NCBI GenBank assembly: GCA_004022145.1
Contig: RCNU01000002.1
Origin: Paecilomyces variotii
Lineage: Eukaryota
Reading direction: 5' to 3' (one strand)
Length of the DNA: 64,000 nucleotides
Shown: one piece after another, positions 1,242 through 64,000 of the stretch
How positions within the stretch are numbered: the stretch's first letter is position 1
Layout: every line of letters begins with the position of its first letter
Made by a program: the position numbers and the translations under genes
Notes under the pieces: model-generated
What the model was told of the DNA's origin: nothing
Seen by the model: the letters and a program-made list of their open reading frames with translations, nothing else
Database searches by the model: none

Positions 1242-3110
1242 CTAGTACTGCGTAATGCCCGCCTCCAATGCCTTGATCTGCAACGCCAACAACCGCGAGT
1301 AATACCTCGCCAGAGCCAAATTGCCTCCCATGAACCAGAACCCAGGGTGTCCGCTTCGTCTCCAGATAGTTCGCACCTCACCCTCCTCGTTGAAGCCCCA
1401 GACACTCCCAACTCGGTCGGCCACTTCGTCGCCAAAAATCAGCCGAGTCGTCGATTTCATGTTCTGATACCCCGTCGCGAAAACAATTTCGTCAGCTTCC
1501 AACTGCGACCCATCCGCGAACTGGAGGCCCGTTGGAATGACCTTGGTGATTTCCTGGCCTTGCTTGACCTTGATCTTTCCATCTGCGATCAGCTGGCTTG
1601 CGCCCACGTCGATGTAATAGCCACCGCCACGTTGGAGATATTTGATAAGAAGACCGGCGTCCATGGGGCCTTTGTCGACCTTGAAACCGGCCTTATCTAG
1701 TCCTTCGAGAAGCTTAGCATCATTCTGGCGCATCGCCTCCGTCAATTTGACCTGCAGTGTCTTGAACAGCTCTCCTGGGATACTCCAGAGATACAGATCC
1801 GCGTCCTCAGCCACCGGGCCGGACTCCTCGTACAGTCCCTTCAGGCCGATATTCGTAATCGAACCAGAGCTAGCGACGTATGTCGAGCTGCGCTGGACCA
1901 TGGTGACTTCGTATCCCTTCTCGTAGTAGTCTTGAGCAATGTCGTGGCCTGAATTGCACGACCCAACCACCACAGCTTTCTTCCCATTGGACTCGGGATT
2001 GGCACCGGGAAACTCTGAGCTGTGGCAGAGTCGATCTCCCTTGAAGCTGTCGACCCCCTCAAAGTCCGGCACGTTCTTCTTGCCCGAGTGACCGGTGGCC
2101 TGGATGATGTGACGCGGGTAGAATGTACGAGTCTCAACGCTACCATCCTCTTTCCTCCGCTCGACGGTGACAGTCCACTGCTTCTTGCTCTCATCCCATG
2201 AGGAAGACTTAATCGTCGTCTTGACCCAGACATTCAGCTCCAAGAGCGTGACGTACGATTCGAAAAACTCCGCTAGTTTGTCCTTTGGCGTAAAGATCGG
2301 CCATGACGGAGGAAACGGTATATAAGGCATATGGTCGAACCAGACGGGGTCATGAAGGACGAGCTGGTGGTATCTGCGACGCCAGTTATCTCCCACTCTG
2401 TCCTCCTGGTCGATGACCAATGTATCAACCCCAAGCATCTTCAAGCGCGCAGCGGCAGTAAGACCCCCTTGGCCTGCGCCCACGATGAGCGCCGCGGGTT
2501 CCTTGTCGATGAAGTTTCTCTCTGCGGTCCGACGATCGAGCCAGTTCGTCCGGCCAAGATGTTCACCATGATGCGCACCAACGGGTCTGCGGTGGTTGAT
2601 AGCCTCTTCGTGACCCTTCAACTCGACAAGGGATGTGAATACCGTGAAAATCTTCCACTCGTTGAGACCCGCCAGTCTCACTATACCGTTTCCTCGTCCA
2701 ACGTTGGTTTCAACGCTGATGTAGAACTCGATGCCTTTTACTTCCCCGACAACATCGATAGGTCCATAATGCGGCGCTTTCCTAGCTGACGACCTGTCTA
2801 TGTGTACTTTGGCAGGCGACTGCCCTTCCGTTACGAATCGAGCGACGTTATCCCTGCCCTTGAGCGTGCGAAAGTCCCATGAGAAGCAGAGATGGTCGCG
2901 CCAGTAGCCGTCATCGACGTACAGCCGAGACAGCGCTTGGGCGTCTTTGTTCGCGAGAGCGCTGTTCAACTTGTCGATGACCTCGGTCGCGATCTTATCA
3001 GGATCATCGGGCACGATCGTGCTCGGGGGAGGGTATTTCCCGAGGGGGATGTTGATTGAGCCTGGTTCAGGTCGTTCGTGCGACTTGACTGCGACTTGGG
3101 CGGCGGCCAT
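1242..3110 (-). CDS. Flavin-containing monooxygenase with N-terminal extension (type II FMO-like), intronless, 622 aa
   Basis: FAD motif GAGQGG, NADPH motif VVGSCNSGHD, FMO fingerprint FKGDRLCHSSEF, DEIVFATGY, and a ~170-aa N-terminal domain containing YWRDHLCFSWDFRTL. Confidence 0.9.
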   Translation of the reverse strand: MAAAQVAVKSHERPEPGSINIPLGKYPPPSTIVPDDPDKIATEVIDKLNSALANKDAQALSRLYVDDGYWRDHLCFSWDFRTLKGRDNVARFVTEGQSPAKVHIDRSSARKAPHYGPIDVVGEVKGIEFYISVETNVGRGNGIVRLAGLNEWKIFTVFTSLVELKGHEEAINHRRPVGAHHGEHLGRTNWLDRRTAERNFIDKEPAALIVGAGQGGLTAAARLKMLGVDTLVIDQEDRVGDNWRRRYHQLVLHDPVWFDHMPYIPFPPSWPIFTPKDKLAEFFESYVTLLELNVWVKTTIKSSSWDESKKQWTVTVERRKEDGSVETRTFYPRHIIQATGHSGKKNVPDFEGVDSFKGDRLCHSSEFPGANPESNGKKAVVVGSCNSGHDIAQDYYEKGYEVTMVQRSSTYVASSGSITNIGLKGLYEESGPVAEDADLYLWSIPGELFKTLQVKLTEAMRQNDAKLLEGLDKAGFKVDKGPMDAGLLIKYLQRGGGYYIDVGASQLIADGKIKVKQGQEITKVIPTGLQFADGSQLEADEIVFATGYQNMKSTTRLIFGDEVADRVGSVWGFNEEGEVRTIWRRSGHPGFWFMGGNLALARYYSRLLALQIKALEAGITQY

Positions 3111-3795
3111 TCTGTTCGGGTTCGTAAGGATATACTATCTGGAGAGATTCCGTGTGATATAGTTCGTCAAAAAAAGAAAGATATGCAGTCAATACTTGGT
3201 ACCTGGATCGCTACCGTGAAGGTGCTCTCTCTGTCCGTCTGTTCTATTTCTGCCCATCAAAGCTAGAATCAAGGCTGGTTAAATATGATACGAATCTACA
3301 GCGGAACCACCGAGGCTAAGATCTCATTGCGTAGGTACATTACTAACCCCGCATCAGAGCTCGCAGGACTCCAGGAGAGAGAATAACCATGCAGTAGTGA
3401 GGGTGGGTTCGAAGCGGGGAGGACGAGGAGAAATGGACCCTCTGATAGTCAACCATCGGTCTCGGCTGATCTGCAAGCGCGCATTCCTCCTCATCTCTAT
3501 TCTATTTATCTTATTTTCTGTCCACGGTGCGGTATATGTATGGGAACTCTTAATCGAGGATTCAAGGGCTGCTTAGTTGGATTTGACCCGTTGGTTATTG
3601 TGAGCGCAATCCATGGATGAGGAGAAGACGTGCTCGTCCCAGGATGATTTCTTGGCTTTTCTCTTACAGGCATTCGAAATTTCCGATGGTTATATTTGAA
3701 TGGGTGTGGCTGGCTAGTATCTGGTTGCTGTTACTCGTAAGTAAGGGATGGTTCTACTCTAAGGATATACCATGTAGCATCGAACAACATATTGT

Positions 3796-3799
<4 letters not shown>

Positions 3800-3829
<30 letters not shown>
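3800..3829. repeat. (AT)n microsatellite
   Basis: Uninterrupted AT dinucleotide run of about 15 units. Confidence 0.95.
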
Positions 3830-3831
<2 letters not shown>

Positions 3832-4421
3832 TAGACCCCCCAGACCTGGAAATAAACCAAAAAGAACATATATTATTAACCGACTATATTCTTATTCTAA
3901 CAAGATCCGAAGAACCCCGTAGAAACGCCAAAGCGCAACAAGACAACGAGCCCTGTGCTTCCTGGCCGGTCACAAGCCGTAGCGCGGCTCCGCATCGGCT
4001 TTGTTCCACCTTGGATAATCGAGTCTCTCGGCTCCGCAAACCGCGTGGCCGAGGCAGTTCAGTTAGGCTTGATACATATATAGCTTTCTATAGCTTTCGA
4101 TTCTTCTTCAACATCTATCGTCTGCGGGTTTTATTCGTAGCCTTATGATTCGTGGCTGTGTAGTACAATACATCCCCGGTGATGTGATTGGCTCTTTGGA
4201 CATGATATCGTGTACTCAAGTATGTATGTACCCTTTGAAGACCCTCGATGGAACTGAACAATAGAGTAGCAGTCGGTTCGAGTGTGAAATCAATATCCAA
4301 CAGCGAAAAATAGGAGAGGAGACGGACCTGGTTTCTCTGTATGCGCTGCTTCATGTACGAGAATTTCCTCCAGTTTGGAGTTTCTCATAGAGCATAATAT
4401 CAGAAAACACTAATATCCCAA

Positions 4422-53103: not shown

Positions 53104-54948
53104 TTATCGCGGCCCATGTCTCTCAGCCGGCCATGCTAAGTATTGGACCAACTGCTGGAAAACCCCGCCGGCAGTTTCCATATCGATTTCAGAATCCGCT
53201 AATACGGAAGTCATGGCAGAGCAGATCTCACGCGAAATATCTCGAACAGCACGCACCACAACGGTATCATTGGCGACATGTTTCGGAATAAAGCGTTCCT
53301 GACAACGATAAGTAACAGACTCCCAATCACCAATATCACTATAATCAATAAAAGGCTCGAGCTTGCGTTCCAGCTCCTCGCGCAGAGCCGTCACGGACGG
53401 AAAGTGGCCCCTGGCCAGTCTGCGTAACTCCTCAGAGTACTCCGCCATGATCATATCGACTACGGATTGCCAATCAAATGCATGACGCGATGGATCTCGC
53501 GTTAGGATCATGTGGGTGATATCTTCCCTGATCGGCTGCAGTTCTTCCGTCGAGAGATGGTCTAGACGTGGTAGGGTAGAGTTATTGGGAAATAGGTCCA
53601 GGTCATAAGTGTATGCAGTGACGAAGTGTTCGAAATCGATAATCACTCGATGGCCTGCAAGGTCGTTGTAGCGCGGTCGTCCTTCCCTTCTGTGGTCCTT
53701 GTGCTTGGGACCGTGTCTGCGTTCGGGGTCTGTCGATGGAGTATCAGGCTTATGCTTCCCTTGTCGCTTGTCCTCGCGAGGCCCTTTACCTTCTGCCTTT
53801 CTGTGATCCATTTGCTGTCCATGCTTTTCTCGAGAGAACTTCCCTTGATGCTCGCGGTCTGATGACGGGGTATCGAATTTATGCTTTCGTTGCTGTTGCT
53901 GCTTCTCTTCTCGATGCCCTTTGCCTTCTCCCCGTCCGTGATCGTTTTGCTGCCATTCCTTCTCTTGACATAACTTCCCTTGCTGTTCGCGCTCTGTCGA
54001 CGGGGAATCAGACTTGTGCTTTCGGTGTCGCTTCTCATCTCGAGGGCCCTTGCCTTCTTCGTCTCCATGATCCTTCTGCCGCCATTCCTTTTCTCTCGAT
54101 GACTTCCCTCGATGTTCGCGACCTTTCTGCGGCATCGTGCGAGTAATATACTCAACTTCCAAATCCCGTTCGAAGTTGCAAAGGATAATCTCAAAGTCAG
54201 CCTCAGTACGAATCAGCCCATCAATGCGATCATTCCAGACCTCCTTCGCCATTTTACAAGCCAGGATCGCACGTTCCTGTTCGTCGGGCGGTCCACCAAT
54301 CCCTGTCTCTCGCATCATCCGAGACTCACTACCTATAGTATCATTGAATAAAATCCGATCTTGCGCATCGAGCGCATGACCCCTCATTCCCGACTCGCCA
54401 TCAAGATAGAGTAATCGTAGATCTCTCGCCGTCACGTAGGTGTGTAAATATCCTCCAGCAGTCTCGCCATCATCTTCTTCTTCTTCATCAGAGCCCAAAG
54501 GTCGCTGAGCCGCGTTCTTCCCAGTATGGCCATCATATCCGCCCCGCTGGTCCTGGTCCTGATCCTGATCCTGGATCGGGAAACGAGGACGTCCATGCTG
54601 TTCACTCCTATGCGCGAAACCCAGAGCATGTTCTGGCTCAAAAGCTAACCACTCCACGCCCGTGACGGGGGTAGAGTTTCCCGAGCCGTGGTAGAACTGC
54701 GTGCCTTTTGGCACTGTTGCAAGGAAGAAAGATACACCGTTTGGATAGAGTGAGGACGCACGATGTCTCATTGATGCGTAGATGGTGTTGAAAATATGGT
54801 TAGAGTTTAGTAGAGGAGCTGTGGATCCATCATCGTTGTTCTTGTTGATGTTGATGTTGATGTTGTTGCTGGGTGCTCCAACCACCAGTACAGGTAGGAA
54901 GGACCAGCCCAGCGAAAGGACGAAGAGATTGATGAATGATAGCATCAT
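53104..54948 (-). CDS. Secreted protein of unknown function with an internal charged repeat insert, 614 aa
   Basis: Signal peptide; conserved-looking blocks QFYHG, EWLAFEPEHA, GYLHTY..LRLLYLDG, DGLIRTEADFEIILC, DWQSVVDMI; intronless ORF. Confidence 0.85.
   Translation of the reverse strand: MMLSFINLFVLSLGWSFLPVLVVGAPSNNINININKNNDDGSTAPLLNSNHIFNTIYASMRHRASSLYPNGVSFFLATVPKGTQFYHGSGNSTPVTGVEWLAFEPEHALGFAHRSEQHGRPRFPIQDQDQDQDQRGGYDGHTGKNAAQRPLGSDEEEEDDGETAGGYLHTYVTARDLRLLYLDGESGMRGHALDAQDRILFNDTIGSESRMMRETGIGGPPDEQERAILACKMAKEVWNDRIDGLIRTEADFEIILCNFERDLEVEYITRTMPQKGREHRGKSSREKEWRQKDHGDEEGKGPRDEKRHRKHKSDSPSTEREQQGKLCQEKEWQQNDHGRGEGKGHREEKQQQQRKHKFDTPSSDREHQGKFSREKHGQQMDHRKAEGKGPREDKRQGKHKPDTPSTDPERRHGPKHKDHRREGRPRYNDLAGHRVIIDFEHFVTAYTYDLDLFPNNSTLPRLDHLSTEELQPIREDITHMILTRDPSRHAFDWQSVVDMIMAEYSEELRRLARGHFPSVTALREELERKLEPFIDYSDIGDWESVTYRCQERFIPKHVANDTVVVRAVRDISREICSAMTSVLADSEIDMETAGGVFQQLVQYLAWPAERHGPR
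53728..54120 (-). repeat. Three tandem intragenic repeats of 129/135/129 bp (43-45 aa)
   Basis: Units start at 54120, 53991 and 53856: RE(H/Q)xGKxxxEKxxxQxDHxxxEGKGxRxxK...KHKxDxPSx. Confidence 0.9.
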
Positions 54949-56678
54949 GGTAGCGAATATGCGATCATCGTCAATAATAATAAAAAGGTCAAGCGAATCG
55001 AAGAAACCTTGGTGGTGTCCAGTTTTTGTCCAGTTTTATGGTATCATTATCCATGCTGTCCCGCGACACATCATCGGGAGGGTTTTCTAAGTACTTAACG
55101 AGAAACACATGCGCCAATATCCGGATAATCAACCGTTGCTTCTTGACTTGCTATGCTATTATTATTAAGTGCGTATATACTCTCCATCGAAAGTCACTAA
55201 CTAACTATATCAAGAAGCGGAAAATAAGAACGAACAAGAACGACTACTGACTCTTCGACACTACTTACGCTAAGTAACTACTTAACCCCGATATGTTATG
55301 AGTTTACGAGCCGCCCCAGTGAAAGTCCCCATCAACGTTGCACCGATAAATTAGGTACTCAAGATAGAGTTCTGATGTAGTAGTTATCTAGCTTGAATTA
55401 CCAGTGTGGAAAAAATGTACGGAGGACTTCGTTAAGTAGATTCATTTAAACCAGGATGATAATCTCAATCGTGACATCCTGGACATGATACCAGGATAAA
55501 CTCAATCCGGTAAGTAGATACGACTATCTACCGGTTATTTAAATTACTTCTCAAGGGCTGCAACTGGGGTACTCTGGAAATTGGCAGTTGACTACTACAG
55601 ATCAATGACTTGATCGACATCCAACACTGTCGGCCGCGCGGCTTGGTCGACTGAGAATCAGGCTCGACAGATACTTACTTATCTTTGCAGGGATCGCGAA
55701 CTTTTCACGACAAGCACGTACTTTTGCTCCTCGAACAAATATGAGCCCATGACCTATATATAGGTAGTCAGTAATAGTATACCAAAGATTTATCCTGCTC
55801 TTTTTTACCAGTGGAGACCGCGATTGGAAGATGTATCGTGGTGCTGGTCTCGGGCCATACTTAAGGATGCCGTATCCATTACATTAGTGCCATAGATAGG
55901 TATCTGATTTCTTTTACTTCTTTGCGATTGCGACAAAGCACGAGTCTGTTCGATTTCTCAGAGTCTGTTCACCTCTATTAACCACAGAGGAGTAGGGACG
56001 AGCCGCAATATGAGATAGTATAATAATTGAAGTACTTGTAGTGAAAAAGCTACGCTAGCTAGCGCACAGCCAGTTTATCTTGGTACAGCACGGGAGGAAG
56101 CCCAGAAAAAAGGAAATTGAACGCAAAGTAGAGACTGTAGGAAAGGGAATTTGATATCTAAAGCGGCCTATCCCGGTGAGGATTCGGCTGCCAGCATTAA
56201 TTGCGCTGTTGATACAGATAAGAATCGCCCCAAAGCCAGCAGAATATCCGAGGGCGACGCTGAATTCTGACAGGAATGTCAGTGGAACTAGGTTCCCGCT
56301 ACTTAGCCTGCAGCAATGCTGTGATAGTCGACAGGAAGAATACCGGCTTCTTGGCTATTTCAAGGTCGATGCGTGTGCGCCGTCTACTGATGAATCTCGA
56401 GGGATTAGTTGCGACCACGATAGGAAGTGGGATCAGAAGCGTAAAGAAACATAGAAAGCGTAGCGTCCAGCGTATTCCGACTTTTTATAGTAGTGTCTGA
56501 ATCAGGAGTGAAAAAACTACTTGCTCCAGGACCAGCTCCTAAGGCTGTAATCATGATAAGACTTCTACATATGTAGCAAGTATAGATCTTAGCTCGGCGT
56601 ATTAACTTTGAAAATACATATCCATCAAAAAGAAGATAAAAACTGGCGCAATAGCACTGCTTCTGAAACGTGAGATCA

Positions 56679-58496
56679 CTAGCCATCGTCGTCCGTTACA
56701 GGGTTTGATTTATTCCCACTCCTCAACGGGTGTGACGGATGGACTCTTTTCATATGCAAGTTCAAATTCCACGTGCGTGTGAAACCATCGGTATGTCTAC
56801 TGCAACCCTTCACAGGACACACAAGATCCTTCTTGCGGTGCTCTCCTTTGCCTTTGAACGGCCTTACAGCGCTCTGCTCTTCACCGTCCTCTTTCGCAAC
56901 TACAGACGCTGCTCGACTGCTCTCTCCTTTGGTAGACTGCGCGCGGGACCGCGTACGTTTGAGCTTGGGAGCAGGCGGCTCTTCTTCTTCGCTGGCCGAA
57001 TACTTCCATAGATCTCTTCCATCCGTAGACTTCGTCTTCCGTACGGCTCCTTCGCTCAATGTCTGGAAAGTCATGTCCTCGCCGAATAAATCAGCACATC
57101 GTCGTGCGGCGCGCATTACCACTTCGGAAGGCCACCCGGTCATGGAAGCGATTCCGAGAACATCGCTCCAATCCCTTATAGCGAGTCTTGCTGACCGCCC
57201 TCCAACCCTTGAACGACTTCGTGACAAGGAGACCGGTGTCCTTGTCGACTCTCGCTTTGAAGGACGTGAAGTCTCGGAAACAGACGAATCAGACTCAGAA
57301 GAGTCTATCGCATATTCTGGAGCCTCTTCGGGGTTTGAGGCAGCTCTTTTTCTGCTTTTGCTGCGAGAGGATGCACGAGCTCGCTTTCTCCCTCTTGATT
57401 GACTCCTTTCCAGTGTGCTTGTCCCTCTCCTCTTTCTGGGTGATGATAGACGAGAAGCCAAGCTCTCTGCCTCAGACTGTCTCTCGCTGGCAGAACTCTC
57501 GTCTGGGACCATACTAGCTTTCCGCGCGTGGTGTAAACTCATTAGAAGTGAGTCTAACCGACTCAAAATTTGTCGTGTCAGAGGCCGTAGTTGTCGTCGA
57601 GACATCTCATCGTCCGCTTGAACTACTGGGCGATATTGGATACCTTCTGCAGTATCCGGTTCACTCTTCCAGCCGCCTTCATTTCCAGATGCCTCCGTAG
57701 TATCGTATCCACGAGAACTCTCTCTCTTGTGCCAAACATAACTCTTCGGCATCTCTTCCCTAGCTTGGAACCGTTCCTTCGAAATCTTCAGCATCACGGC
57801 TATGAGAGATTCTTCTAACGGAGCACTTGGTCTGATATCCGGCGCTCTTTTAATCGTGTATGGATCATCGTTGTCGTTGATCAGCGATTCATCCAACCTG
57901 GGAACTTCCTCAGGTGGCATAGGCCATGCTGTCCACAGCTTGCCTGGGACAAACGCCGTCTCTTCCTCTTCCTGGCTGCCATTTTCAGCAATTCTCTTTC
58001 GAATCTCTCTGGCCCGTCGTTTCAGCGCATGAGCATTGAACAGATGAGCTGAGAGATCTCTGGCACGTATGATCTCCAGGGATTCAGCAACTTGACGCTC
58101 TTTCTGAGTCCATAAGCGCCAAGTAGAGGTAGGACCATGGTACCTATTTGGTCGATGCACAGGTGGTGACTCCGAACGATAAATGTCTGTATCACTATAC
58201 GAAATGGGCGCCTTGTATTTTGCTTTCTTCTTTTCCTTGGCTTTGTTTTCCACCGTACTGCGCCTCTCAGGAAGGGGCGCGTCTTCGTCACTCGCGTCGT
58301 ATGTCGCATCATCAGAGTCATCACCCATAGGAGGTAGCTCCTCATTTAGTACATCTTCGATATCCACGTCATGGTCAGACTCTCTGGCCTCGTCATGTTC
58401 AATAGGCTGACTGCTCGATCCAAATATGGAACGATAGGGTTGAGCCGATTGGGGAGGATATTCATGATCTGGACGTTGCTGCGACGACGCGGACAT
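56679..58496 (-). CDS. RRN9: Rrn9-domain Pol I UAF subunit with C-terminal C2H2 zinc finger
   Basis: RPNRYHGPTSTW..ARDLSAHLFNAHALKRRA..WTAWP (Rrn9 domain); DWSDVLGIAS..RCADLFGE; CPVKGC..FTRTWNLNLHMKRVH. Confidence 0.8.
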   Translation of the reverse strand: MSASSQQRPDHEYPPQSAQPYRSIFGSSSQPIEHDEARESDHDVDIEDVLNEELPPMGDDSDDATYDASDEDAPLPERRSTVENKAKEKKKAKYKAPISYSDTDIYRSESPPVHRPNRYHGPTSTWRLWTQKERQVAESLEIIRARDLSAHLFNAHALKRRAREIRKRIAENGSQEEEETAFVPGKLWTAWPMPPEEVPRLDESLINDNDDPYTIKRAPDIRPSAPLEESLIAVMLKISKERFQAREEMPKSYVWHKRESSRGYDTTEASGNEGGWKSEPDTAEGIQYRPVVQADDEMSRRQLRPLTRQILSRLDSLLMSLHHARKASMVPDESSASERQSEAESLASRLSSPRKRRGTSTLERSQSRGRKRARASSRSKSRKRAASNPEEAPEYAIDSSESDSSVSETSRPSKRESTRTPVSLSRSRSRVGGRSARLAIRDWSDVLGIASMTGWPSEVVMRAARRCADLFGEDMTFQTLSEGAVRKTKSTDGRDLWKYSASEEEEPPAPKLKRTRSRAQSTKGESSRAASVVAKEDGEEQSAVRPFKGKGEHRKKDLVCPVKGCSRHTDGFTRTWNLNLHMKRVHPSHPLRSGNKSNPVTDDDG

Positions 58497-59228
58497 AGCC
58501 TTTATCTGAAATCTCTGTTCGAGGGATCACCTCCCGCTCTTTCTTGTCGAATGCAGGAGGCTATCATCACATGGACGATTGTAATATCTGCAGAGTACTT
58601 TCGACAAAGAGCGCTCGTGTCAGCAGACAGCCAATAGCGATGTTCAAATTCTCCCCCAAAATTATGCCGTGTCGAGGAGGATTGGACAGCGGCTTGAAAC
58701 CTGGCTTCCGCGAAATTTGACGAGTATGGCTGGTTCCTGAAAGGTATCCTTACTACTGTACAAGAAAGGAATACCACCGCTCATCTAGAATCTTATGGTG
58801 TTAGCTCCAAGGTGCTGAAGTAATTGGACAATATTACGATCCGGTGGAGTCGGGCGAAAATTACGGGTCACGTGATTTCAGTTACCCTTTCGAGGATATC
58901 ACTGCTTTCAAAACCAAATTTCTTTTACAAGTGCGATTTGAAGAGCGCGTGATGAGGTTACTTCTCAAATGTTGCTTGGATTTGTATGTGGGAGCTTTCA
59001 TACTGGGTTACTGAGAAGCCATCCGGTCAAAATCAGTCCAACATATATACAAACTCCCATTGGCCGTGTGAGTACCTACATCTAGATTTTCTAATGTAAC
59101 TACTAACACACGAGTCTCTGCGAAGATTATTACACGAATAAGTTTATGCTATAGCATTTACATTTCCGAACCTTCTACTAGTCACATGTTTTGATATTGT
59201 GTGGAAAAGAAGTACATACTGGATATGT

Positions 59229-60501
59229 CTATTTATTATGGGTATCATCGTCGTCGTCATAAGTCGTTTTCCAGCCCCGATCAAGACCCAGCACCTTTCC
59301 AGTGATAAGACCCTTTATAGTCAAGATATGCTCTATTATCCACATCACAACAAGCATGATCAGCAGGGCCGTCGACCAGACTTTGAAGGCTGGTGAATCG
59401 AGAAGTAGCCCCAAGTGGACTGCAGCGTTGGTGTAAACTCCCTAGTTTCTTGGTTACTATGAACCTGCCCTCTCCGCAACAATGGATGTGACTTACCCAT
59501 GGGAAAATCAAGGCCCACGCGGACATGCTGAACTTGGTTTTTCTCCAGCCGCCAGGCTGAGCGATTACAGTATGCACGATACTGATGATAGCAAAGCACC
59601 ACCAGAACGTCCCGTATCCCCATGAAAGCAAGCCAGCAAACTGACTTGCAAACGCTATTGGAGTGGCCGAGTTCGCAGTCAAGAATTCTCCTTTATTGTA
59701 CCTCGCGAAGCTATTTCTCGACACAGCGTGGCCGAGTATCTCCAGCGCGAAACTTGCTTGTCCAAAAGGACCGCATAATATCATGTCCTGATAGATCTTT
59801 TCGATATCTGGAAACGACTTGTTGAAGAGTCTTGATAAAAATATGGTATCAAAACTCATCGCTAGTGGAATCCCAACTCCCATTTCCAGGTATGCCACGA
59901 CAATAACTGGGACTTGGAGCCGGTCGCTGATGGCACCATACCTGCATATGATACCTCCTCCAGCGGCTGAAGTGAGAGCTGCAATAAGAGGTAGCAGAAT
60001 GGACGGGGTAACTGCATGGATTCCTGGGGGTTGTAATTTCACAAATACATAGGGAATTCCTATACATGAGACAACCGCCATGGCTGTATCGGTCCACCAC
60101 AGAACATAAGCGACAATGCCCCAGGCCGGTCCCCAGTCATGCACTATCGACAGTGCGATCATTTGAATTATTGTCTCGAAGCTGATAGAAATGCTAGCCA
60201 GGCATGATGTCTCGATAATGCTCGTTCGCAGCCGATTGGCCACATGTCTCGGGTACAAAAGAATCCTGAGCAGGTAGAGAAAGACAAAGGACGACAGCAG
60301 CACAATCGTGTATACCCAGACTATTTGTGATATGGTTTTCAACCCGTGGAATTGATAATCCAATTGGTGAAGTGTCACCGCAATTATTCCTGTGCCTTGC
60401 GGAACTAGGAACCACTGCGAAGAGAAATTCCACAAAGCCAGAGCTGCTGGGTTTGATGGGTGTTGCAGTGCTCGTCTTTGACTCCCACCGGTTTCGCTCA
60501 T
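59229..60501 (-). CDS. TDT/SLAC1 family anion channel (Ssu1/Mae1-like); exons 60501-59497, 59441-59229
   Basis: About 10 TM segments; FSSQWFLVPQGTG, CGPFGQASFA, WGYGTFWW, WALIFPW|GVYTNA. Confidence 0.9.
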
Positions 60502-60786
60502 TTCTGCGATCCCTTCTTCCAACGCGGTCTTCCCATTTACTGTATATAATATTTACAGTGATTTTTAGCCAAGCGCACAAAGCTTAGCGGATCGCGTCGG
60601 CTTCGCATTCCGACCCATTAAGTGATGTACGTGCGTCGCATTGACATCACGTTCCAAGAAAATGTCAGGAATTAATTCCCCGCGTTTCGGGATCTCCGCG
60701 GGACTGTTAGTTTTATGAATACCTGGTAACTTATTTGCTGAGAGCGCTCGCCCGATTATTGCTCTGGCGGCATCGGTGAAGCAAAT

Positions 60787-63700
60787 ATGGTTCCCTATTA
60801 CCAAAGCAGAAATTCAATTGAAGATATCTGGGGCTCTCGACAGCCCTATAAACACCAATGGCCTCAAAGAGAGGATGCATATCTTTTGGATGAGCCTGAT
60901 AAATGGGTGCAGAGTGCTTGCGTTCTGTGCAGGTTGAACTGTCAATCTAATTGTGCACAGTATTGTCTGAGTGTGCTGACTTTTACCATAGTAATGGATG
61001 TGGATTAGACATTGGAGTCAAGGACGGAAAAGTAGTCGGTGTAAGAGGACGTGTTGTTGATCGAGTCAACAAAGGCCGTTTAGGACCTAAGGGGCTGAAT
61101 GGGTAATTGAATCGTTTTCAAGTCGACTTGAGGGTAGTGCTAATCTGTGTACAGATGGACAGCTATCAATCATCCAGATCGTCTTACCCATCCATTGATA
61201 CGGAAGAATGGGAAACTCGTCAAGACGTCCTGGGATGAGGCAATGTCACTTATTGTGGAAAAAGCGAAAGATATTCGTCGACGCCTGACCAGCCATGGAA
61301 TCGCCTTCTACACGTCTGGGCAGCTTTTCCTCGAAGAATATTATGCCCTTGCAATGATTGGAAAGGCAGGATTAAATGCACTTCACATGTAAGTCGTAAC
61401 TAGTATATAATTTATCAGTGCAGCTGACTGCGTATATAGGGATGGGAATACCCGTCTGTGCACCGCTACTGCAGCTGCTTCCATGCGAGAGTCTTTCGGA
61501 TCCGACGGGCAGCCTGGATCGTACGCAGATGTTGATTATACGGACTGTCTATTCATAGTCGGCCACAACGTGTCTGCTACACAAACTGTTCTGTGGGCGC
61601 GTATCCTGGATAGGTTGGACGGTCCCAATCCACCGAAGCTGATTGTTGTCGACCCTAGAAGATCTGAAACGGCAAAAAGAGCTACTGTTCATCTAGCGCC
61701 CAAAATTGGCACAAATGTCGCTCTATTGAATGGTATCGAACACCTGATGTACAAAAACGGTTGGATAGATGACGACTGGGTCACAAAACATACAGTCGGC
61801 AGCCAGGAACTTAAAGAAACAGTTGAAAAGTATACCCCAGAGTTCGTTGAGCAGATAACTGGTGTCCCGAAAGGAAAGTTGGAGGAAGCTGCTCAGATAA
61901 TCGGCACAACAAAGACGATGTTGTCCACTGCCCTGCAGGGAGTCTATCAATCGAACCAAGCAACTGCAGCCGCTTGCCAGATTAACAATATTAATCTTCT
62001 CCGTGGCCTCATCGGCAGACCAGGGAGCGGGATACTGCAAATGAACGGCCAGCCAACAGCACAGAATAACCGCGAGGCCGGCTGCGATGGGGAATTTCCA
62101 GGCTTCAGGAATTTTCAGAATCCGAATCATATCAAGGAAATTGCCGACGTGTGGAATATAGACCCTCTACGAGTTCCGCACTGGGCGGAGCCGACCCATA
62201 TAGAGAATATGCTGACGTACATTGACGAAGGGTCAATCGAGATGTTCTGGGTATCAGGAACGAATCCTCTCGTCAGCTTGCCAAATCTTACCATGGCACG
62301 AAAATGCCTTACAAAGCCGGATCTGTTTGTAATCTGCCAGGATATTTATCTCACTGAAACTGCTCAGATCGCAGATGTGGTCCTACCTGCAGCGCAATGG
62401 GGTGAGAAAACTGGCTGCTTTACGAACGCTGACCGGACAGTACATCTGTCGCACAAGGCTGTCAATCCTCCAGGAGAGGCGAGGGCTGACTTGGATATCT
62501 TTCTCGATTTTGGGAGGAGAATGGACTTCAAAGATAAGGATGGCAATGACCTGCTACCTTTCAGTACACCAGAGGAGGTCTTCTGTGCCTGGAAGAAGCT
62601 GTCTAAAGGTCGCCCATGCGACTACAGTGGTCTGTCATATGAAAAGCTGACAGGAGGCTCTGGCATCCAGTGGCCCTGCAACGACACCTACCCTTACGGA
62701 AAAGAAAGATTATTTGACGACGCCGTCTTCTTCACTGACATTGACTATTGTGAAAGCTTTGGTCACGACCTCGAGACAGGTGCGCCGCTTTCCAAAGAAG
62801 ACTACCAATCGATAAATCCAGGCGGTAGAGCGATTCTCAAATCAGCAAATTACTTTCCTGACCCAGAAGAGCCCAATGAGAACTATCCAATTCGATTGTC
62901 GACGGGACGCAATGTCTACCATTTTCATACGAGAACCAAAACGGGGAGATCGAAACCGCTGCAGGAAGCTTGTCCCGAACCTACTATCCGTATTTCCAAA
63001 GACGATGCTGTCAAGTTCAATGTTCAAGATGGAGATGAGGTGGTGGTCAGATCGAGGAGGGGAGCGGTTGAGATGAGAGCCTCAGTTGGGGATATCGCTC
63101 CAGGACAAGCTTTCATTCCCTTTCACTTTGGATATTTTGATTCTACAGACGGAAAATCCAGGGCAGCGAATGAGTTGACAATAGGTCAGTTTTCCACACC
63201 AATATGATTGAGTCCTACGAAAGTCTAACATCAACGCTCCAGAACGATGGGACCCAATATCGAAGCAACCAACCTTCAAGTCGGGGGCAGTTCGCATCGA
63301 AAAGATCGAGCCAGGACAGGTTAAGATTCATGCCCGAGAGCAACACTCTGCATCTGTTCGGAAAGTCCAGACGGAAAAACCAACGGTACAATTGGTAAAG
63401 CATAAAGTGGAGAGGACACGCAGGCTTGAGCTGTGGCTCGGGACAATTTTCGAAGCCATCCAGATCCTGAAGGAGATCTGTTCTCAGCTGATACCCACGC
63501 TCATCCATGACATGGAAATCCCTGGCGGGATGAAAGTCATGGAACGCATAGCTGAGTCTATACAGGAACGGCTCGCCCCAGTCATCGATACATACAAGGA
63601 ACAAAAAGTCTTCGGTGAATCCGTATCACGCAGAGTTCGCGACAACCTGTTTCCAGCACTAGATCGCAACAGTGACCACGAGCCGTACGAAGCCCTGACT

Positions 63701-63970
63701 GCTCTGCAAGCTTTCTATATGTATCTCTGCCATATCGATGGCCACCTCGTTGCACTGCACCCCGCGAGCCAAGCGATGTGGGACGAGAACTTCTTCGAGG
63801 CAGTCAAATTCTCTCAACAACAAATCACGAGGATGAAGAGTTGGACTACGCAGCAAATGAAGACTAAGTCCCCGCAGAGACTGCTCGTGCCAATGGACCC
63901 TATCGACGAGACTGTCGGAAGCGTCTTTGAAGAAGATGCGCGCAAACTAGCAGACTCTTTGCGTGCGTAG
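60787..63970 (+). CDS. Bacterial-type molybdopterin (DMSO-reductase family, NapA/NarB-like) oxidoreductase with fused C-terminal helical domain. Exons 60787-60932, 60992-61102, 61155-61388, 61440-63184, 63243-63970 (~987 aa)
   Basis: CVLCS|NGC Fe-S motif, DRLTHPLIR, SGQLFLEEYY, MDGNTRLCT (Mo-ligand Cys), GQPTAQNNRE, DVVLPAAQWGEKTG, STGRNVYHFHTRTKT, AANELT, DPISKQPTFK. Four in-phase introns. Confidence 0.9.
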
Positions 63971-64000
63971 GATCATACACTAGATCCCATGCTACTTGAG

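What the first reader, a model, noticed from the sequence alone, without database searches (positions are those of the whole stretch)
60787..63970. Intron-containing DMSO-reductase-family (bis-MGD) molybdoenzyme in a fungus
Seen: a full NapA/NarB-like catalytic subunit with four spliceosomal introns, so it is a domesticated fungal gene rather than contamination. No signal peptide is evident. Established: bis-MGD enzymes are classically prokaryotic and need MobA. Fungal assimilatory nitrate reductase NiaD belongs to the unrelated sulfite-oxidase family. Inference: an old horizontally acquired oxyanion-redox enzyme implying a fungal MGD-cofactor route. The substrate is unknown and nitrate is only the nearest label.
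Basis: partly seen in the sequence, partly recalled or inferred. Interest (0 to 1): 0.75.

Follow-up and report, generated by a model that had tools for sequence, protein, structure and literature searches.

The report
Fungal bacterial-type molybdoenzyme with cofactor genes
A mould splices a gene of bacterial origin for a molybdenum enzyme that sits beside the two genes needed to build a form of the molybdenum cofactor thought to be confined to bacteria and archaea; what the enzyme acts on is not yet known.

Summary
Confirmed and extended. The gene has five exons (987 aa). RNA contigs skip all four introns at the predicted ends. Just past the window edge lie a stand-alone moeA and the genome's only mobA match. 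The trio recurs in other fungi and is under purifying selection in the one pair tested.

The enzyme is neither NapA, NasA/NarB nor FdhF. It belongs to a separate prokaryotic clade sister to NasA/NarB, with three iron-sulfur cysteines (fourth replaced by Gly), Cys-Thr at the molybdenum ligand and a ferritin-like partner, here fused at the C-terminus. Fungal copies nest inside this clade (AU p=0.022).

Fungal 'napA' homologues are published (75 of 712 genomes), but that paper never mentions mobA, and a 2018 survey credits eukaryotes with no DMSO-reductase-family enzymes. This scan already reported the same cluster in another fungus (e1-7709586).

Best reading: a domesticated bis-MGD module (about 85%) whose enzyme acts non-assimilatorily on nitrate/nitrite under stress (about 45%). 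A Fusarium fujikuroi strain that carries the gene still cannot use nitrate without NiaD. Neither cofactor nor substrate is shown.

The parts
60787..63970 (+). Molybdoenzyme gene, 5 exons, 987 aa: FeS domain (C45-x2-C48-x3-C52, Gly80 in place of the fourth Cys, Lys82 kept), Mo ligand Cys171 followed by Thr172, NapA-type Arg375, dinucleotide-binding domain, ferritin-like C-terminal domain
60933..60991 (+). Intron 1 (59 nt); splits the FeS motif; weak donor GTTGAA; spliced in X2, retained in the contigs of X10 and X14
61103..61154 (+). Intron 2 (52 nt), spliced in X2, X10, X14
61389..61439 (+). Intron 3 (51 nt), spliced in X2, X10, X14
63185..63242 (+). Intron 4 (58 nt), spliced in X2, X10, X14
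63404..63910 (+). Ferritin-like helical bundle (aa 800-968), homologous to the ~155-aa partner gene of prokaryotic relatives; candidate metal ligands replaced in fungi
63971..64000 (+). Start of the 3' UTR; the cluster continues beyond the window. In L007 (G000:C12:4031001-4041000): poly(A) site near 1198; palindromic double NirA-consensus site 1291-1300; intronless stand-alone MoeA, 479 aa, 1857-3296 (+), in addition to the gephyrin-type gene on C78; intronless MobA-like guanylyltransferase, 233 aa, 3282-3983 (-), overlapping the moeA 3' end by 15 bp
59229..60501 (-). Divergent TDT/SLAC1 (Ssu1/Mae1-type) anion channel, 405 aa, one intron 59441-59495 spliced in X2 and X10; found beside the cluster in 0 of 80 metagenome loci, so it may be a chance neighbour
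60694..60701 (+). CTCCGCGG, matching the NirA consensus, in the 285-bp divergent promoter; weak evidence
60642..60649 (+). CRE-like TGACATCA in the same promoter; CRE-like sites recur upstream of cluster genes in other fungi; weak evidence

Best explanation
A three-gene module of bacterial origin, long domesticated in filamentous ascomycetes. (1, shown) The enzyme gene is spliced, and the genes are conserved and clustered. (2, inferred, about 85%) The host pathway supplies molybdopterin, the clustered MoeA inserts Mo, and MobA adds GMP to give Mo-bis-MGD, which is loaded into the cytosolic enzyme through Cys171. (3, inferred, about 65%) Three cysteines bind a [3Fe-4S] cluster in place of [4Fe-4S]; the ferritin-like domain, which has lost its candidate metal ligands, is structural. 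(4, inferred, about 45%) The enzyme transfers an oxygen atom on the nitrate/nitrite couple outside assimilation, as a redox-balancing or nitrite-handling step in stressed or dormant cells. The direction is open: the funnel resembles nitrate reductases, while a high-potential [3Fe-4S] would suit nitrite oxidation. The confidence given is for the whole statement including step 4.
For: MobA and MoeA are adjacent. Of the 16 loci longer than 6 kb among the 32 best MobA-anchored metagenome loci, 13 hold a close enzyme homologue, about 5 distinct lineages; none of the other 48 loci does. Enzyme and MobA accessions are 1-2 apart in 4 named fungi (3 of these pairs were pre-selected by equal contig length). 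dN/dS is 0.06, 0.18 and 0.12 for enzyme, MobA and MoeA in one pair of fungi. Enzyme and MobA look degraded together, with no MoeA found, in L042-L044/L047-L049. A Curtobacterium plasmid has the order enzyme, partner, HPP, NTP transferase, DUF6457, MoeA-like. The clade is sister to NasA/NarB, support 1.0; the best fold match is D. desulfuricans NapA, TM 0.92 of target; Arg375 is kept in 53 of 53 rows. HPP proteins adjoin or are fused to the partner in 3 bacterial loci (their nitrite transport is recalled). NirA-consensus sites lie before the enzyme and moeA, as before niaD in this genome. Stress links: CRE-like sites, 7 against about 1 expected; M. smegmatis narB and the gene after it depend on SigF; stress genes adjoin Arthrobacter and Staphylococcus members.
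Against: No cofactor, activity or substrate was measured. MobA and MoeA score below all NCBIfam cut-offs. F. fujikuroi IMI 58289 carries a homologue, yet its niaD deletion cannot use nitrate and resists chlorate (whether that strain has mobA was not checked). The Met that follows the Mo ligand in nitrate reductases is Thr in 53 of 53 rows. NirA sites occur in only 1 of 11 upstream regions of other fungi, which is chance level, and more than 800 A. nidulans genes carry one. The anion channel was beside the cluster in 0 of 80 loci. Intron 1 is retained in the contigs of 2 of 3 spliced runs, which truncates the protein. No electron donor or acceptor gene is linked.
Confidence: 0.45

Rival explanations
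1. The same bis-MGD module, but the enzyme acts on another substrate: sulfite or another oxyanion (selenate, tellurite, perchlorate), or an S- or N-oxide formed under oxidative stress.
For: The Cys-Thr pair and three-Cys motif differ from the nitrate reductases compared here. Knock-outs show no nitrate role. The neighbouring channel family exports mainly sulfite. 5 of 11 prokaryotic genomes with this enzyme also hold a separate Cys-Met NasA/NasC-type enzyme. The neighbourhoods are stress-like.
Against: Sister to NasA/NarB, with the NapA-type funnel Arg kept; HPP neighbours; no S-oxide-reductase-like score (bisC family 116 bits against a cut-off of 1018).
Confidence: 0.35
2. A cytosolic formate dehydrogenase or CO2 reductase.
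For: The top NCBIfam score is Fdh-alpha (501 bits); the top PDB sequence hit is an FdhF; one database label says so.
Against: Below the 666-bit cut-off. The His after the ligand and the Arg of the LRGQ motif are both absent. No FdhD in the genome, while 8 of 14 controls ring. The tree places it away from the Fdh branch.
Confidence: 0.07
3. A back-up assimilatory nitrate reductase, or the missing respiratory nitrate reductase of fungal denitrification.
For: Database labels; counted as a denitrification gene in 2018; NirA-consensus sites in this genome.
Against: The host has a NiaD-type gene. The niaD deletion is not rescued in F. fujikuroi. napA, nirK and p450nor co-occur in only 18 of 167 p450nor genomes. 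No membrane or cytochrome partner is linked.
Confidence: 0.07
4. Contamination or an inactive relic without MGD.
For: Decayed copies exist; intron 1 is often retained; the FeS motif is incomplete.
Against: It lies on a 4.56-Mb contig between RRN9 and NOP7, with host-like GC, spliced introns at positions shared across fungi and dN/dS of 0.06-0.18. The three-Cys motif is also the norm in prokaryotic members.
Confidence: 0.06

Closest known systems
Fungal 'napA' of Higgins et al. 2018 (PMC6161760)
   Same: Very likely the same family (inferred from database labels; their sequences were not compared): 75 of 712 genomes, role called intriguing.
   Different: The main text has 0 hits for mobA, moeA, molybd or cofactor, and the one held supplement 0 for mobA or molybd. 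It treats the gene as NapA, which it is not.
Periplasmic nitrate reductase NapA of D. desulfuricans (2NAP/2JIO)
   Same: Fold (TM 0.92 of target, 31% identity), Cys ligand, Lys by the cluster, funnel Arg.
   Different: Fourth Cys is Gly, Met after the ligand is Thr, no export signal, fused ferritin-like domain, score far below the cut-off.
Assimilatory NasA/NasC/NarB
   Same: Sister branch; cytosolic; Cys ligand.
   Different: A separate clade on a long branch; no Cys-Met; three Cys; co-occurs with a canonical-type NasA/NasC in 5 of 11 genomes.
M. smegmatis 'NarB' MSMEG_2837 with MSMEG_2838
   Same: Actinobacterial members of this clade have a downstream ferritin-like partner; narB and the next gene are SigF-dependent; narB is dispensable for nitrate.
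   Different: That subclade swaps the cysteines for Ser/His/Asp; fungi keep three Cys and fuse the partner. The M. smegmatis sequence itself was not examined.
AioA/IdrA ([3Fe-4S] MopB enzymes)
   Same: A three-Cys N-terminal cluster, described as high-potential.
   Different: They have no amino-acid Mo ligand; here Cys171 is invariant; score 134 bits against a cut-off of 359.

Membership tests
DMSO-reductase (MopB) superfamily | Fe4S4 + Molybdopterin + Molydop_binding domains and fold | tested here: met
   All three Pfam cut-offs passed; model pLDDT 87.6, Foldseek E 9e-56 to NapA
DMSO-reductase (MopB) superfamily | Amino-acid Mo ligand at the conserved position | tested here: met
   Cys171 in 53 of 53 aligned rows; aligns with the NapA and FdhF ligand
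DMSO-reductase (MopB) superfamily | Bound Mo/W-bis-PGD | not testable with these tools
   Inferred from the adjacent mobA and moeA
NapA | Export (Tat) signal | tested here: not met
   No twin Arg or hydrophobic leader in the N-terminus (by inspection and hydropathy only)
NapA / NasA / NarB | Four-Cys [4Fe-4S] motif | tested here: not met
   Gly80 in 51 of 53 rows, Cys in none; outgroup NasA keeps Cys
NapA / NasA / NarB | Met after the Mo ligand | tested here: not met
   Thr in 53 of 53 rows
NapA / NasA / NarB | Funnel Arg after GQP | tested here: met
   Arg375 in 53 of 53 rows
NapA / NasA / NarB | NCBIfam cut-off | tested here: not met
   NapA 340 of 904 and 322 of 931; NasC 422 of 1100
FdhF-type formate dehydrogenase | His after the ligand, Arg in LRGQ, NCBIfam cut-off | tested here: not met
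   Thr; MNGQ; 501 of 666 bits
FdhF-type formate dehydrogenase | FdhD sulfurtransferase in the genome | tested here: inconclusive
   0 matches, 8 of 14 controls ring; the assembly may be incomplete
AioA/IdrA | No amino-acid Mo ligand | tested here: not met
   Cys171 invariant; definition
MobA | NTP-transferase domain with LAGG..K, GPxAG, CDxP and NxN motifs | tested here: met
   PF12804 70 bits against 27; motifs conserved in 35-43 of 43 rows; 9 of 10 PDB hits are MobA
MobA | NCBIfam cut-off; GTP rather than CTP (MocA) specificity | tested here: inconclusive
   Below all cut-offs; MobA models E 3e-19 to 9e-6 against MocA 1e-4
MoeA | MoeA_N + MoCF_biosynth + MoeA_C without a G domain | tested here: met
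   below the NCBIfam cut-off, 232 of 440
Ferritin-like (YciE/YciF, DUF892) domain | Helical-bundle fold | tested here: met
   Z 17.9, rmsd 2.9 A over 155 residues to 7tmv; the top four Foldseek rows are YciF-like but only at E 0.02-0.03
Ferritin-like (YciE/YciF, DUF892) domain | Glu/His/Asp metal ligands | tested here: not met
   Candidate E, H, H, D kept in 30, 30, 27 and 31 of 31 prokaryotic partners; the commonest fungal residues there are Leu, Ile, Met, Ala or Thr (43 sequences)

The most novel reading that the evidence does not exclude
Fungi, and possibly a non-fungal eukaryote (L055), make Mo-bis-MGD through a horizontally acquired private MoeA-MobA branch, and use it in a [3Fe-4S] molybdoenzyme of an uncharacterised stress clade that oxidises nitrite (or sulfite) rather than reducing nitrate. 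This would add the DMSO-reductase family to eukaryotic molybdoenzymes and give a reaction to a widespread, mislabelled prokaryotic family.
Probability: 0.2. Interest if true: 0.9.

Novelty: new variant of a known kind. Interest (0 to 1): 0.68.

Why it matters
A survey of 250 eukaryotic genomes states that eukaryotes have members of only three molybdoenzyme families: sulfite oxidase, xanthine oxidase and mARC. A spliced DMSO-reductase-family gene clustered with mobA and a second moeA makes eukaryotic bis-MGD synthesis directly testable with three single deletions in a tractable mould. It also addresses the open role of fungal 'napA' (about a tenth of genomes), and warns that counting it as a denitrification gene is unsafe.

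Tried and rejected
MoeA with MobA complex prediction: no verdict, score 0.00 in both runs, alignments not used, controls not folded; no evidence either way.

Paper searches for a published fungal bis-MGD or MobA system found nothing relevant. Searches gave 0 papers. One search listed 20 papers, judged from the listing, of which the relevant ones were Higgins 2018 and a NapA structure paper. One search gave 1 unrelated paper. The library lacks most subscription papers, and the figshare data of Higgins were not seen.

The anion channel as a conserved fourth member: 0 of 80 loci; the genome has about six such genes.

NirA motif as a conserved feature: 1 of 11 other upstream regions against 0.46 expected; 5 in the whole window against 5.6 expected. 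The wider CRE pattern (12 sites against 1.3) was set after looking at the sequences and is not counted.

Origin of the clustered MoeA from gephyrin: not rejected with 38 sequences (AU p=0.07), rejected with 48 (p=0.008). Only one gephyrin was included, and most added rows are unnamed and assumed prokaryotic.

Donor lineage: unresolved (support 0.14-0.19 at the relevant nodes). The Bacillota upstream gene shows no similarity to the ferritin-like partner. Foldseek gave no match at E<=0.001 for the C-terminal domain. The sigma-70 scan was uninformative. The 'Aspergillus oryzae Pcr' phrase in PMC12769810 was not taken as a fungal perchlorate reductase; from recall it refers to the bacterium Azospira oryzae. 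Contig cover over the intronless moeA and mobA does not show transcription.

Full report
Observation. The window holds a five-exon gene at 60787-63970 encoding 987 aa. The four introns (59, 52, 51, 58 nt) have GT-AG ends and branch sites. Of four RNA runs laid on the region, X2 skips all four introns at the predicted ends, X10 and X14 skip introns 2-4 but retain intron 1, and X4 is unspliced; X10 ends in a poly(A) tail about 230 bases past the stop codon. These are contigs, so levels cannot be read. Retaining intron 1 gives a stop after 73 codons. The gene lies on a 4.56-Mb contig between RRN9 and NOP7, with GC 0.49 like its neighbours. The host is Paecilomyces variotii by the source names of the adjacent MoeA.

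Neighbours. The only PF12804 match in the 30-Mb genome lies 2.3 kb past the stop codon (L007:3282-3983, minus strand). It is a 233-aa intronless MobA-like protein. It keeps the LAGG..K, GPxAG, CDxP and NxN motifs, and 9 of its 10 PDB hits are MobA, but it scores below NCBIfam cut-offs. Between it and the enzyme is an intronless stand-alone MoeA (L007:1857-3296), separate from the gephyrin-type gene on C78. A TDT/SLAC1 anion-channel gene is divergent upstream. No FdhD was found. A NiaD-type nitrate reductase is present elsewhere.

The trio is conserved. A metagenome scan with the fungal MobA alignment kept 80 loci. Among the 32 best-scoring, 14 hold a close enzyme homologue, 18 a MoeA and 8 all three. 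Of the 16 longer than 6 kb, 13 hold the enzyme, collapsing to about 5 lineages. None of the other 48 loci holds a close homologue, and none of the 80 holds the channel. The enzyme and MobA hit lists (120 each) share 8 exact contig lengths against about 0.1 by chance. Accessions are 1-2 apart in Colletotrichum truncatum, C. orbiculare, Helicocarpus griseus and Aspergillus egyptiacus (three pairs were chosen through), and one merged C. orbiculare model joins enzyme and MoeA. Introns 3 and 4 fall at the same codons in L026, L028, L033, L043 and L047, and introns 1 and 2 in L026, L028, L033 and L035. Between L026 and L033, dN/dS is 0.06 (enzyme core), 0.17 (C-terminal domain), 0.18 (MobA) and 0.12 (MoeA), with dS above 1. 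In one lineage the enzyme carries stops and frameshifts, the MobA match is partial in some copies, and no MoeA was found.

What the enzyme is. Domains and fold are those of the DMSO-reductase family; the closest solved structure is D. desulfuricans NapA. It meets no NCBIfam cut-off. In 53 aligned rows the Mo ligand Cys171 is invariant and followed by Thr, not the Met of nitrate reductases or the His of formate dehydrogenases. The fourth FeS cysteine is Gly in 51 rows. The NapA-type Arg375 is invariant, and the formate-dehydrogenase Arg is missing. Prokaryotic relatives at 44-62% identity occur in Bacteroidota, Pseudomonadota, Actinomycetota, Bacillota, Chloroflexota, Deinococcota, a cyanobacterium and an archaeal bin, and in 18 of 301 genomes of the Arthrobacter phylum sample. 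They form one clade (support 1.0) sister to NasA/NarB. Fungi form one branch inside it, and monophyly of the prokaryotic members is rejected (AU p=0.022, 43 of 72 sequences used); the donor is unresolved. Five of 11 such genomes also hold a canonical-type Cys-Met NasA/NasC.

The C-terminal domain has no Pfam match, folds as a ferritin-like bundle nearest YciE/YciF stress proteins (Z 17.9) and is homologous to a ~155-aa partner gene. That partner was found at 31 of 38 prokaryotic clade loci (7 were in the profile; the misses are 6 Bacillota and one contig end) and at 0 of 15 outgroup loci with short flanks. It is fused in Massilia, Halomonas and the archaeal bin. Its candidate metal ligands are replaced in fungi.

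Origin of the cofactor genes. Fungal MobAs form one clade among prokaryote-like MobAs (no proper outgroup). The clustered MoeA does not group with the host gephyrin; a joint clade was not rejected with 38 sequences (p=0.07) and rejected with 48 (p=0.008). A Curtobacterium plasmid carries enzyme, partner, HPP, NTP transferase and MoeA-like genes in a row, so a transferable unit exists. An intronless, GC-rich, eukaryote-looking contig has the enzyme divergent from a MobA-MoeA fusion.

How it most likely works. Established (recalled) chemistry: MoeA inserts Mo into molybdopterin and MobA adds GMP to give bis-MGD. I infer that the module gives the fungus a private branch to bis-MGD (about 85%), that the three-Cys motif binds [3Fe-4S] as in AioA/IdrA (about 65%), and that the enzyme is cytosolic. 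For substrate I commit to the nitrate/nitrite couple outside assimilation (about 45%). For this: ancestry and funnel; HPP neighbours in 3 bacterial loci; a channel family that exports sulfite and nitrate; NirA-consensus sites before the enzyme and moeA. Against: the F. fujikuroi niaD deletion is not rescued and resists chlorate although the strain has a homologue; M. smegmatis narB is dispensable; the NirA sites are not conserved.

A stress role is suggested by CRE-like sites in 5 of 11 upstream regions of other fungi against 0.5 in shuffles, and 7 sites in all 14 regions against about 1 from real non-coding background; these regions are not all independent, and the AtfA meaning of the motif is recalled. 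It is also suggested by the SigF dependence of M. smegmatis narB and by catalase and general-stress neighbours. I confirmed that Ser/His/Asp actinobacterial members with a partner fall in this clade, but did not see the M. smegmatis sequence.

What is known. Higgins et al. 2018 (passages; one supplement searched) counted fungal napA homologues in 75 of 712 genomes without mentioning the cofactor. Peng et al. 2018 (passages) list three eukaryotic molybdoenzyme families only. Wells et al. 2023 (passages) has 0 hits for 'fung'. Other papers were seen as passages: PMC4694148, PMC7816997, PMC5348485, PMC3020322, PMC4635503, PMC12769810. Searches found no description of the cluster, within a library that lacks most subscription journals. 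This scan noted the same cluster in another fungus (e1-7709586).

Verdict. Real, expressed and conserved. The gene family is known; the cofactor cluster, the clade's anatomy and the case against the NapA label were not found in print. New variant of a known kind, interest 0.68.

Noticed in passing
L055 and L056 (metagenome contigs, GC 0.64): Intronless enzyme with fused ferritin-like end, divergent from a MobA-MoeA fusion; CA repeats and long insertions suggest a eukaryote; basal to the fungal MobA and MoeA clades; lineage not identified.
   Followed up: partly
L042-L044, L047-L049: Decaying copies: stops and frameshifts in the enzyme, partial MobA match in some, no MoeA in about 20 kb.
   Followed up: partly
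window 60933-60991: Intron 1 has a weak donor, splits the FeS motif and is retained in the contigs of 2 of 3 spliced runs; possibly a point of regulation.
   Followed up: partly
L019:5527-5955, L020, L022, L024, L132: Bacillota members have a different conserved ~143-aa gene upstream instead of the ferritin-like partner; no similarity found.
   Followed up: partly
   Followed up: partly
L083, L084, L099: Bacterial mobA-moeA pairs near the fungal ones in the MoeA tree lie convergent with a distant, YdeP/FdhF-looking molybdoenzyme.
   Followed up: no
L017:1933-4890: An archaeal bin has the fused enzyme beside a flavin/FeS (HdrA-looking) gene.
   Followed up: no
window 53104-55035 (-): 643-aa open frame with a hydrophobic N-terminal stretch and charged repeats, no Pfam match.
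   Followed up: no
window 51420-52706 (+), 56679-58526 (-); L007:4371-9121: Ordinary flanking genes: aldehyde dehydrogenase, RRN9, NOP7/pescadillo, PIG-U and a GNAT acetyltransferase.
   Followed up: no
P0127, P0132; P0262, P0269: In Fusarium a HET-domain gene adjoins the enzyme and gets merged into it; Colletotrichum MobA proteins are labelled as MoaC-type in databases.
   Followed up: no
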